From: the human T2T-CHM13v2.0 reference genome, Homo sapiens
Strand: one strand, 5' to 3'
DNA: 64,000 nt
NCBI RefSeq assembly: GCF_009914755.1
Contig: NC_060930.1
Positions within the stretch are counted from its first letter, which is position 1. Each line of letters starts with the position of its first letter. A program made the translations under genes and the position numbers. Below are positions 1,000 to 59,489 of this stretch, piece after piece. The notes under the pieces are model-generated. The model worked only from the letters and a program-made list of their open reading frames with translations. It searched no databases and was not told the origin of the DNA.

Positions 1000-1490
<491 letters not shown>

Positions 1491-1555
1491 TAACCATTAT
1501 GTCTAGTGGGTTTCTTTAACTCTTGTTTTTGCATTGCAGGTAAACATCTGTACTC

Positions 1556-1608
<53 letters not shown>

Positions 1609-1894
1609 CCCTCTGTAGAGACAGAGAGTACATAAGTATATATAGACTATATAGACAGATTATATATATATAGAGAGTGTACATACAGAGAATACATACA
1701 TATATACATATATATGTATATATGTATAAAGTGCTTTGCATGTATTATAATGTTAACCATTATTTCCAGTGGATTTCTTTAACTCTTCTTTTTGCACTAC
1801 AGGTAAATGTCTGTACTCTCTGACTCTGTCTCTCTGTCTCTTTCTCTCTCTGTAAAGACAGAGAGTACATAAATATATGACTCTATATAGAGAG

Positions 1895-1937
<43 letters not shown>

Positions 1938-2439
1938 GAACTACAGAGAATACATACATATATAGAGATGATTAGATAATACTCTATATTAGATAATAGA
2001 CTATTAGATATGACTAATAAGATTAAAACCTCTAATATTAGTGCAAATTTAGTACAAATGTCCATAATTTCTTCTAGTAATCAATTACTTGGCTTTTTTG
2101 TCTCTCAGTAGCTTTATACTTATATAAATAATACAAATTTTTACTATTTATTTTTCTACACATTAATAGATTCATTTTTATATGTACTCCTTTATAATTC
2201 ACATTATTGTCTAATTTTTGAATGAATGTCATTGTATCTTATCTGACAGGCATACAAATGTAAATTTTGAGGGTATACGATAATATTTATTTTATGAATA
2301 GTGGTGATGATGATGATGGGCATGATAGTGACAATTATGATGCAACGGTGATGATGATGTAAAAAGTAATGATGATAGGGATAGAAGAAATTGGAGTTGC
2401 AATGCTAGTTAATATTAATTTTTTCATATGTTGAGTTCC

Positions 2440-57349: not shown

Positions 57350-58900
57350 TCATTCATATTTTAGTCCCACATCCAGTTAATCACGAAGTCTTATATTCTA
57401 ACTTCTCATCTTCACAGCCACTAGTTTATAATATTTCCAACAGTGCTGTCATTCGTCCCACCAGCTCTGGTCTTATCTCACTGTAATACTCCCTTGCAGA
57501 GATTTCTTTCACTGTGCACCTTAACTTTGAAAGGTATAGATAAAAAAAATAAATTATTACATACGAGTAACAGAAAACAACTTAGATAATGAGTCAGTCC
57601 ACATGCACATAACCCATCTCTGAATTAGTCAATATAATATGCTCAATTACCCACTTTCTCCACATTCTTATGTGGCATACTTACTCTATGCTCTTCAAAA
57701 AAGATTTATATTTTCAGGGTTGAAATATGATTATGTCATCTCCATTCTCAGTTAGAATATTTTAAATATACCCTCAAAATTCCTAGGTAAGTCCAAATTC
57801 CCTTATATGGTTCTTGAAGTTCTGGAAGTGGTGTTACCTTGCTCTCTGGATTTAGCTGTAGTTATTACTCTCCATGTGTGCTAAAGTATGCCATTTAAAA
57901 CTATTTGTAGTTATCTAACTTTATATTCTTTCTTGCCTTGGGGCTTTGGCACATGCTGTTTCTTGCCTAAATGTACCCACCCCTTTCATGTTGCTTGTAA
58001 ATTCCTCCTTGTCTTCCATGACCCTAGTCTAAGAACTAAAGTATCTTTCTTAAATGCTCCCATAAAACCATGTACTCATCTTATCATAACACTGATAGTA
58101 CTCTGTTGACATTGTCAACTCCCTGTTTCAGATGCCTATGAAACCTCAACTCCCTGATTACAGAGACTATATTTTTCTCCTTTCTATACTGAGTGGCTAG
58201 TACAGTATCTCATGCATAGAAAATATACGATAATTATTTGTTAAATTGAAATTCACAATTTGTGGTATAGATTAGATGCATTTGTGCCTAACTAAAAAAA
58301 GGAGGAGGTTTCTCTTTACTAGGCATTATGCTGGATATTAATGATTTCAAAGTTAATGTGCTAAAATTCCTGTCATTCCAGAACACATCTTAGTTTGTTA
58401 ATTTCTTTCTCTTCCTTTTTTTTTTTATAAGTGGTCACATTTGTTATTATTTTTTAGAAAATACTTGGGATAACCCCAAATTTGAATCCATATCTGCATT
58501 GCAAATATGGGGTAGAGTTAACTGGGGAAAACTTGAATTTTCTCTTGAAACAAAATTCTTATGTATCTAGTATAAATAAATTGGGCTGACCTACCAAAAA
58601 GAATACATAGCATGGAAGGGAATCAATAAACAATTGTTTGAAATAAAAATGACTGAGTAGATTTGCTGGAATAAAGATAATCCAAGGGCCAGGTAAAAGA
58701 TATGAAGTCTATGGATTATAAGTGGGATCTGAGTCATAAAAAGAGATTTGGAGAACTGAAGATGTTGAGTGACTGAGTTTTGATCAAGTATATAATGGGT
58801 TATCCAAGTAGATAAGCATATAATAGATAATTTTTCTACAAGATTTATAATGAGCAATTTTAAAACATCTGGGCTAGAGAAATATAAATTGAGAAGGTTG
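57350..58900. mobile_element. L2 fragments (plus strand ~57350-58250, minus strand ~58300-58900)
   Basis: 'gggctttggcacatgctgtttcttgcct', 'tagtacagtatctcatgcatagaaaa', 'tctgggctagagaaatataaattgaga'. Confidence 0.55.
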
Positions 58901-59050
58901 AAATTATAGTGAAATTTTGAAAATACATTAGAACATCTCCAACAATGATAGAACATTTCAGAGTCTAATAATTTCAGTCCTTAAAATTTTGGTTAAATGT
59001 TCAAGCTGGGATGAATAATTTGGCCTTTATAGTCTCGTTTAAAAGCTTCA

Positions 59051-59145
59051 GGAGCTGCGGTGGCTCAGGCCAGTTGTCCTGGAGCATAAGGAGGCGAGGC
59101 TACACATTCAAGGCCAACCTGGGCAACATAAAAACCTCTCATCCA
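59051..59145 (+). ncRNA. Retrocopy of a snaR-lineage small RNA (ASR/CAS-like, derived from an internally deleted Alu left monomer)
   Basis: GGAGCTGCGGTGGCTCAGGCCAGTTG...GGAGGCG...ATTCAAGGCCAACCTGGGCAACAT; Pol III A/B box-like motifs; exact TSD TTAAAAGCTTCA at 59039-59050 and 59146-59157. Confidence 0.75.
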
Positions 59146-59489
59146 TTAAAAGCTTCAAAAATTGCCACAATCTAGAACACTGTAAGATTGTTATATTTTC
59201 TGCATGAGAGAATTTTAAAATATTATTTCTGAAATATTGTCTTTATATATTTGAGAGTGATCTAAAGAGTTAATAACCTCCAAATCTGCATCCTCACTGA
59301 AGATAAAATAAAATGAAATGTGCCTTTACTGAAGCAGAGGAGATTCGGGAAAAATTCAATCAAAACCTTCCCAAGTTAGGGATTTCTACTCACATTTACT
59401 TAGAACTTCAAGGAGGAAAGTTTTTGAAAATGATATAGGCCTTCCAATATATAGTTGGAACCTTTTTATGATTCTATTATTTAAAAAAA

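What the first reader, a model, noticed from the sequence alone, without database searches (positions are those of the whole stretch)
59039..59157. TSD-flanked retrocopy of a snaR-lineage (ASR/CAS-like) Pol III small RNA
Seen: a 95-bp GC-rich island in AT-rich DNA, bounded by an exact TTAAAAGCTTCA duplication that contains the L1-endonuclease site TT/AAAA. It has an A-box-like TGGCTCAGGCCAG (59061-59073) and a B-box-like ATTCAAGGC (59106-59114), but it is too short and internally too different to be an ordinary Alu left arm or FLAM. Knowledge: its 5' part (GGAGC..GTGGCTCAGGCC.GTTG), middle GGAGGCG and 3' TTC.AGGCCA.CCTGG.C.ACAT match my recollection of snaR (small NF90-associated RNA). That family arose from the Alu left monomer through retrotransposed intermediates named ASR and CAS. 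Inference: this is an L1-mobilised copy of that small-RNA lineage. It has almost no poly-A tail; instead it carries a unique 3' stretch (AAAAACCTCTCATCCA) that may tag its source gene. The B-box changes look like CpG decay (CGTTCGAG to CATTCAAG), so this copy is probably inactive. If it were transcribed, the first T4 terminator is at 59196, giving ~145 nt.
Basis: partly seen in the sequence, partly recalled or inferred. Interest (0 to 1): 0.85.

Follow-up and report, generated by a model that had tools for sequence, protein, structure and literature searches.

The report
ASR retrocopy of the snaR lineage

Summary
An exact 12-nt direct repeat (59039-59050 and 59146-59157) brackets a GC-rich 95-nt insert.

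The insert belongs to the ASR (Alu/snaR-related) family of Parrott et al. 2011 (PMC3045588):
- It carries the 17-19-nt internal deletion delta1 relative to Alu left arms.
- It keeps the 3' segment whose loss (delta2) defines CAS.
- It lacks the two 8-nt snaR expansions.

In the same genome I inspected 44 ASR and 34 CAS copies, plus the chr19 snaR arrays. Many copies have their own A-rich target-site duplications. A tree gives the ladder Alu, ASR, CAS, snaR. This copy sits among late ASR forms that already share CAS-type substitutions.

The TT that opens the downstream repeat is probably element sequence, which leaves a 10-nt duplication starting with AAAA at a TT/AAAA site.

Four of five private changes are CpG to CpA, and two or three of them damage the B box. 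There is no nearby terminator and no excess RNA folding.

Verdict: a known family and an inactive fossil, of low interest. The family's locus lists are in supplements I could not read.

The parts
59039..59050 (+). Upstream copy of the 12-nt direct repeat. The target-site duplication proper is probably 59041-59050 (AAAAGCTTCA). The TT at 59039-59040 is then the flank side of a TT/AAAA L1-endonuclease-type site.
   Evidence: The cleavage-site logic is established knowledge of L1 target-primed reverse transcription, not a tool result.
59051..59147 (+). Body of the ASR (Alu/snaR-related) retrocopy, about 97 nt, sense on the + strand.
   Evidence: It is full-length homologous to 43 other inspected ASR copies. 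The end CATCCATT is shared with L002, L013, L018, L098 and L096.
59061..59072 (+). Pol III A-box position (+11 to +22 of the element).
   Evidence: Positions are as given for CAS in PMC3045588 section 16. The GTGGCTC core is intact here.
59094..59097 (+). Junction of the delta1 deletion: 17-19 nt of the Alu left arm are missing here.
   Evidence: Alignments with 6 Alu left arms of the window and with 3 of them. All ASR, CAS and snaR rows share the gap.
59106..59115 (+). Degenerate Pol III B box (+56 to +65). It has G to A at 59106 and 59110 relative to the family state. A third G to A at 59104 lies just upstream.
   Evidence: share of each group with G (late / mid / early CAS): 59104 is 6/7, 18/21, 8/8; 59106 is 6/7, 11/21, 8/8; 59110 is 6/7, 18/21, 6/8. 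B-box position.
59131..59147 (+). 3' segment that ASR keeps and CAS and snaR lack (the delta2 region). It is homologous to the end of the Alu left arm.
   Evidence: 8 of 8 early CAS have gaps in these columns, while 21 of 21 mid ASR and 7 of 7 late ASR are filled.
59148..59151 (+). AAAA: either a 4-nt remnant of an A tail or the first four bases of the downstream duplication copy. The two cannot be told apart.
   Evidence: inference from the siblings' A tails.
59146..59157 (+). Downstream copy of the 12-nt direct repeat.
59196..59199 (+). First TTTT downstream, the nearest possible Pol III terminator. It lies about 149 nt from the element start and is not part of the element.

Best explanation
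The element at 59051-59147 is a fossil retrocopy of ASR. ASR is the low-copy, Alu-left-monomer-derived small-RNA gene lineage that later gave rise to CAS and then to the snaR genes.

Proposed history:
1. A Pol III transcript of an ASR-stage source gene was made. The published model places that source at the chr19 parent locus.
2. The L1 machinery reverse-transcribed it at a TT/AAAA site in unique, AT-rich chr6 DNA (inferred).
3. The T-rich primer annealed to the RNA's A-rich 3' end, so almost no A tail was left (inferred).
4. A 10-nt target-site duplication formed. It reads as 12 nt because the element itself ends in TT.

The source was a late ASR form. It already carried substitutions otherwise seen in CAS, but it still had the 3' segment that CAS lost.

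Since insertion the copy has decayed, mainly at CpG sites, and two or three of these changes damage the B box. It has no adjacent terminator, so it is most likely transcriptionally dead and without function.

Shown here: homology, indel pattern, duplication, dispersed single-copy flanks and CpG-type changes. Inferred: L1 mediation, the chr19 source, inactivity and age.
For: **Duplication.** An exact repeat abuts the element at both ends.

**Siblings in the same genome.** The genome search returned 40 scored matches of 48 candidates at 78-100% identity. Three further searches used CAS, mid-ASR and old-ASR queries. I inspected 44 ASR and 34 CAS copies.

**Indel pattern.** The delta1 gap is shared by all 18 ASR, CAS and snaR rows against 6 Alu left arms. 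The delta2 segment is present in this element and in 9 other ASR rows, and absent in 4 CAS and 4 snaR rows. The epsilon expansions occur only in snaR rows.

**Published definitions.** They match: delta1 17-19 nt, delta2 about 13 nt, A box +11-22, B box +57-65, and most copies flanked by short direct repeats.

**Tree (96 rows, 82 columns).**
- ASR+CAS+snaR against Alu: 100/96, starred.
- snaR: 100/97, starred.
- This element lies in a 53-row clade with late ASR, CAS and snaR: 98/78.

**Retrotransposition in siblings.**
- 35 of 78 inspected copies have an exact flank repeat of 8 nt or more, and 31 have 10 nt or more.
- 30 of those 31 are A-rich at the 5' end.

**Dispersed insertion.** Both flanks are single-copy in the genome.

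**Decay.** Four of five private differences are CpG to CpA.

**Alignment scores.** ASR 80-119, against Alu left arms 25.
Against: - The tree branch placing the element beside CAS and snaR rather than mid ASR is not starred (98/78). With 82 columns many forks are open.
- The element is about as similar to mid ASR (score 119) as to late ASR (114). The late-ASR assignment therefore rests on a few diagnostic positions (element positions 53, 67, 81, 94, 97).
- No A tail can be shown, which is unusual for L1-mediated copies. The explanation through the AAAA-initial duplication is inference.
- Age signals disagree. One private non-CpG change in about 90 sites suggests youth, while 4 of 6 inferred source CpGs lost suggests tens of millions of years. 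Both estimates rest on tiny counts.
- No orthologous empty site could be examined, and no expression or Pol III occupancy data were available. Inactivity is inferred only.
- I could not see the paper's supplementary locus lists.
Confidence: 0.93

Rival explanations
1. It is a CAS element (catarrhine ancestor of snaR), or a CAS-to-snaR intermediate, rather than ASR.
For: - It shares CAS-type bases at core positions 53 and 67 of the element.
- Its highest core identity in the tree alignment is to an early CAS copy, L008: 90% over 81 columns.
- The A- and B-box positions equal those published for CAS.
Against: The defining delta2 deletion is absent. The element keeps the whole 3' segment, which 8 of 8 early CAS copies lack and which every CAS and snaR row also lacks. 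It has no epsilon expansions either.
Confidence: 0.03
2. It is an ordinary free left Alu monomer or Alu fragment with a private internal deletion, and the likeness to the snaR lineage is coincidental.
For: - The family as a whole descends from the Alu left monomer, and the 3' half aligns to Alu left arms.
- One Alu-like monomer with a different deletion of about 24 nt does exist in the genome (L124). Independent deletions in this region therefore do occur.
Against: - The deletion is not private. The same gap and the same non-Alu 5' half occur in 43 other inspected ASR copies and in all CAS and snaR copies.
- Among the more than a million Alus that the paper cites, the 29 best matches that came with loci were all ASR or CAS.
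- The local score to the 12 Alu left arms of the window averages 25, against 80-119 for ASR.
- The ASR+CAS+snaR clade is separated from the Alus at 100/96.
Confidence: 0.01
3. The copy is still a working Pol III gene, or has been co-opted as a small RNA or regulatory element at this chr6 locus.
For: - The A-box core is intact.
- A TTTT lies about 149 nt from the start.
- Relatives of this lineage (snaR) are expressed Pol III RNAs.
Against: - The B box carries G to A at 59106 and 59110 relative to the family state.
- The RNA folds no better than shuffles: z = 0.07, and 89 of 200 shuffles fold at least as well.
- No Rfam family matches it.
- The hub's gene table lists no annotated gene or functional element there.
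- The changes look like neutral CpG decay.
- No expression data could be consulted, so this is unlikely rather than excluded.
Confidence: 0.04

Closest known systems
ASR (Alu/snaR-related) elements, Parrott et al., Nucleic Acids Res 2011 (PMC3045588)
   Same: - delta1 deletion relative to the Alu left arm.
- Retained 3' segment and a length of about 97 nt.
- A- and B-box positions.
- Flanking target-site duplication.
- Dispersed location with single-copy flanks.
   Different: - This copy belongs to a late sub-group of 8 inspected copies. The sub-group ends in CATCCATT rather than the commoner CATCTATATAAC and shares some CAS-type substitutions.
- It has almost no A tail.
- I found no ASR sub-groups described in the main-text passages I read. 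The supplements could not be read.
CAS (catarrhine ancestor of snaR)
   Same: - Same 5' 79 nt: 81-90% identity to early CAS copies.
- Same delta1.
- Same box positions.
- Same mode of spread.
   Different: CAS lacks the 3' segment 59131-59147 (delta2). This copy has it.
snaR genes (Rfam RF02556 snaR-A; chr19 arrays)
   Same: Same lineage. They share the 5' start, the A-box region, the delta1 junction and the B-box region.
   Different: - snaR has two 8-nt expansions, a T-run terminator and conserved duplicon flanks, and spreads by segmental duplication.
- This copy has none of these.
- Its local score to snaR genes is 37.
- It gets no RF02556 match at E up to 10, while a chr19 copy scores 109.3 bits.
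Alu left monomer / FLAM-C
   Same: Ultimate ancestor. The GTGGCTC core, the region around the B box and the 3' end are alignable.
   Different: - 17-19 nt are missing (delta1).
- The segment after the A box differs (GTTGTCCTGG...CATAAGGAGG instead of the Alu sequence there).
- The local score is only 25.
- Curated FLAM, BC200 and 7SL sequences were not compared. Only 12 Alu copies of the window were used, plus the Rfam scan, which gave no hit on the insert.

Membership tests
ASR (Alu/snaR-related) | Internal deletion delta1 of 17-19 nt relative to FLAM-C or the Alu left arm | tested here: met
   a gap of 17-19 columns after GGAGG(C) against 6 and 3 Alu left arms of the window. Definition.
ASR (Alu/snaR-related) | Retains the roughly 13-nt 3' segment that CAS has lost (no delta2) | tested here: met
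   59131-59147 aligns to 21 of 21 mid ASR and 7 of 7 late ASR copies, while 8 of 8 early CAS copies are gapped there.
ASR (Alu/snaR-related) | No epsilon1 or epsilon2 8-nt expansions | tested here: met
   the expansions are present only in the snaR-12, snaR-F-like and snaR-A rows.
ASR (Alu/snaR-related) | Dispersed retrocopy flanked by short direct repeats | tested here: met
   12-nt exact repeat; both flanks single-copy in the genome.
ASR (Alu/snaR-related) | Type 2 Pol III A box (+11-22) and B box (+57-65) | tested here: inconclusive
   The positions fit. The A-box core is intact. The B box carries G to A at +56 and +60 relative to the family state. The paper says only that most copies have the boxes, and says it of CAS.
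ASR (Alu/snaR-related) | Phyletic range: present in Simiiformes, absent from prosimians; orthologous filled or empty sites | not testable with these tools
   Only the window's own genome is held; there are no other primate genomes.
CAS | delta2 deletion; body about 85 nt ending directly in an A/T tract | tested here: not met
   the segment is present and the body is about 97 nt.
snaR (Rfam RF02556 snaR-A) | Matches the snaR-A covariance model at or above 98 bits | tested here: not met
   no RF02556 match on 58900-59300 at E up to 10. Positive control: L071 scores 109.3 bits.
snaR | Embedded in the conserved duplicon flanks and followed by an A/T-run terminator | tested here: not met
   One search shows the shared flanks and the A-run plus T-run of the snaR copies. 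Here the flanks are unique and the first TTTT is at 59196.
Free left Alu monomer / Alu left arm | Complete central region between the A and B boxes | tested here: not met
   17-19 nt are missing. The local score to 12 Alu left arms averages 25.

The most novel reading that the evidence does not exclude
This copy and at least seven siblings form a transitional late-ASR sub-lineage:

| Locus | Place |
|---|---|
| L002 | C11:117188816 |
| L013 | C16:93471606 |
| L018 | C16:55643121 |
| L098 | C18:2866766 |
| L096 | C2:166922077 |
| L099 | C13:41638565 |
| L006 | C10:34470908 |

These copies already carry CAS-type substitutions but have not yet lost the delta2 segment. Within the group the 3' end changes stepwise towards the point where CAS ends. 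This suggests that delta2 may have arisen when an internal A-rich stretch took over as the tail, rather than by a clean internal deletion.

If so, the source gene kept producing retrocopies throughout the ASR-to-CAS transition. Filled or empty states of these eight loci in New World monkeys would then date that transition directly.
Probability: 0.4. Interest if true: 0.3.

Novelty: already known. Interest (0 to 1): 0.2.

Why it matters
It matters little biologically. It is one of a few dozen neutral fossils left by the source gene that became snaR. Its modest value is threefold:
- **Dated snapshot.** It records the ASR-to-CAS transition in a lineage that produced a hominine-specific, ribosome-associated Pol III RNA.
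- **Annotation.** In 2010 the authors found no database annotation for the family. Such copies may therefore be labelled as odd FLAM fragments or left unmasked.
- **Method check.** A reader working from sequence alone recognised an obscure published family correctly.

Tried and rejected
- **Rfam scan.** Scanning 58900-59300 at E up to 10 found nothing on the insert that scored near its family threshold. There were only weak chance snoRNA-type matches, one of which (TtnuHACA2, 19 bits against a threshold of 100) runs into its 5' half.
- **Supplements.** The supplementary locus lists of PMC3045588 are .doc and .pdf files and could not be read. Whether this chr6 locus is already listed remains open.
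- **Paralogous empty site.** I searched the genome with each flank. Both are single-copy, so there is none.
- **RNA folding.** No stability beyond shuffles, so no structural argument can be made from this copy.
- **First identity table.** Cheap gaps inflated the identity to Alu to 79.7%, which is misleading. A stricter global version crashed on the Alu rows. I replaced both with local alignment scores.
- **Age from divergence.** I considered it and dropped it as a firm claim. Counts are too small (1 non-CpG and 4 CpG private changes) and the two signals disagree.

Full report
**1. The observation**

The window has an exact 12-nt direct repeat, TTAAAAGCTTCA, at 59039-59050 and 59146-59157. It encloses 95 nt. 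GC is 0.55-0.58 over the insert and 0.18-0.38 around it.

A 12-mer repeat at spacing 60-400 is not in itself rare:
- Thirty first-order Markov simulations of the window gave a mean of 3.1 per 64 kb.
- The real window has 27. Most are Alu target-site duplications, Alu arm repeats or one tandem repeat.

What makes this repeat meaningful is that it abuts both ends of a sequence with many full-length relatives elsewhere.

**2. Relatives in the same genome**

| Query | Result |
|---|---|
| The 95-nt insert | 48 candidates, 40 scored, 78-100% identity on many chromosomes |
| A short-type copy | 40 more scored matches |
| The chr12 copy | Regular arrays on contig 19 (about 5.4-kb period, 50.74-50.95 Mb and 53.20-53.23 Mb), plus single copies on contigs 2, 3 and 19 |
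| Mid-type and old-type long copies | 19 and 5 further full-length matches |

One array copy (L071) matches Rfam RF02556 snaR-A at 109.3 bits against a threshold of 98. These arrays are therefore the snaR genes. The further matches were fetched as short stretches.

After removing duplicates I inspected 44 long copies, 34 short copies (2 of them partial) and 12 distinct snaR-type sequences. One of the 5 late fetches, L124, is instead an Alu-like monomer with a different deletion of about 24 nt. I did not count it. All counts are lower bounds, because the tool scores only the best candidates.

**3. What the published work says**

I read the following:
- Sections 15-18 and 24, plus passages, of Parrott et al. 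2011 (PMC3045588).
- Part 1 of 3, plus passages, of Parrott and Mathews 2011 (PMC3337139).

They describe this series:
1. FLAM-C gives ASR, through an internal deletion delta1 of 17-19 nt. ASR occurs in all Simiiformes.
2. ASR gives CAS, through a 3' deletion delta2 of about 13 nt. CAS is about 85 nt, has its A box at +11-22 and B box at +57-65, and occurs in catarrhines.
3. CAS gives snaR, through two 8-nt expansions. snaR occurs in African great apes.

ASR and CAS are described as low-copy retrotransposons, mostly flanked by short direct repeats. snaR spreads by segmental duplication. A full-text search for "catarrhine ancestor of snaR" found only these two papers.

**4. Which stage this copy is**

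I aligned representatives with six Alu left arms from the window itself:
- Every ASR, CAS and snaR row, including this element, has the 17-19-column gap after GGAGG(C).
- This element and the long copies keep the 3' segment that the short copies and snaR lack.
- Only snaR rows have the expansions.

By the published definition the element is ASR, not CAS and not snaR. Its box positions (+11-22 is 59061-59072; +57-65 is 59107-59115) agree with the paper.

Mean local alignment scores of the element:

| Group | n | Mean score |
|---|---|---|
| Late ASR | 7 | 114 |
| Mid ASR | 20 | 119 |
| Old ASR | 11 | 80 |
| Early CAS | 8 | 97 |
| Late CAS | 24 | 85 |
| snaR | 12 | 37 |
| Alu left arms of the window | 12 | 25 |

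An earlier identity table with cheap gaps made the Alus look 79.7% identical. That figure is misleading, so I replaced it.

**5. Place in the lineage**

I built a maximum-likelihood tree of 96 rows on 82 shared columns, leaving out the partial copies L050 and L062 and collapsing identical rows. Support values:
- ASR+CAS+snaR separated from the 12 Alu left arms: 100/96, starred.
- snaR: 100/97, starred.

The tree draws a ladder: old ASR, mid ASR, late ASR, early CAS, late CAS, snaR.

This element sits in a 53-row clade with late ASR, CAS and snaR, outside mid ASR. Support there is 98/78, which is not starred, and many forks are open with so few columns. The assignment rests on a handful of positions: element positions 53 and 67 agree with CAS rather than mid ASR, and positions 81, 94 and 97 mark the late 3' end.

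Its nearest copy by path is L002 on contig 11, at 90.5% identity over 95 nt.

**6. The 3' end and the duplication**

It is alignable to the end of the Alu left arm and present in all inspected ASR copies.

The five late siblings readable there (L002, L013, L018, L098, L096) end in CATCCATT before their A tails. The TT at 59146-59147 is therefore best read as element sequence. That leaves AAAAGCTTCA as the duplication, preceded by TT in the upstream flank. This is the classical L1 endonuclease TT/AAAA pattern, which is established knowledge and not a tool result. Because the duplication starts with AAAA, no separate A tail can be counted.

Among 78 inspected copies:
- 35 have an exact flank repeat of 8 nt or more, and 31 of 10 nt or more. 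The search required exact matches ending within 3 nt of the element start, so imperfect duplications were missed.
- 30 of those 31 are A-rich at the 5' end.

Both flanks of this element are single-copy in the genome. It is a dispersed insertion, not part of a duplicon.

**7. State of the copy**

Against the group majorities, the element has five private differences: 59072, 59083, 59104, 59106 and 59110. Four are G to A in a CpG context.

An intact GTTCGAG core is kept by only 2 of 8 late ASR copies (this element included) and 3 of 20 mid ASR copies, against 10 of 12 snaR sequences.

The RNA folds no better than shuffles (z = 0.07). No Rfam family scores near its threshold on the insert. The nearest TTTT is about 149 nt from the start. 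I conclude it is an inactive fossil. This is an inference, because no expression or occupancy data could be consulted.

Age cannot be fixed from these small counts. By position in the ladder and the paper's dating of delta2 (30-45 million years ago), the insertion is predicted to be around or before the catarrhine-platyrrhine split.

**8. Verdict**

The family has been in print since 2010-2011. Whether this very locus is in the paper's supplementary lists could not be checked.

The only mildly new point is the graded late-ASR sub-group. I did not find it described in the main-text passages I read.

Interest is low.

Noticed in passing
G000 contig 19, 50.74-50.95 Mb and 53.20-53.23 Mb (loci L066-L092): The snaR arrays in this assembly are very regular, with a period of about 5.4 kb. 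Among the 40 scored matches of 94 candidates, 27 lie in the first array and 7 in the second. That total already exceeds the 30 human snaR loci cited in the 2011 paper.
   Followed up: no
L084 (G000:C19:49656439-49656541, minus strand): This snaR-A-type copy lacks the conserved duplicon flanks and the T-run. It is followed instead by a long A tract, so it looks like a retrotransposed snaR copy. The paper says few such copies exist.
   Followed up: no
L036 (G000:C12:100305922-100306005) and L060 (G000:C6:33044123-33044204): Two CAS-type copies also lack any A tail, yet are flanked by direct repeats of about 12-15 nt that are not A-rich. L036 lies inside an antisense Alu. Tail-less copies therefore recur in this family, and here the AAAA-initial duplication cannot explain them.
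   Followed up: no
L062 (G000:C3:65751054-65751107): Only the first 54 nt of a CAS copy are present. It sits inside an antisense Alu, with the same roughly 15-nt Alu string on both sides. This is a 3'-truncated copy, which is unusual for target-primed reverse transcription.
   Followed up: no
L124 (G000:C11:113746314-113746405): An Alu-like free monomer keeps the Alu sequence after the A box but has its own deletion of about 24 nt in the same region as delta1. It is either an independent deletion or a relative of the ASR precursor.
   Followed up: partly
window 1459-1942: A run of exact 12-mers or longer repeated at a spacing of 217-263 nt indicates a tandem or segmental repeat next to the Alu at about 1135-1439.
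   Followed up: no
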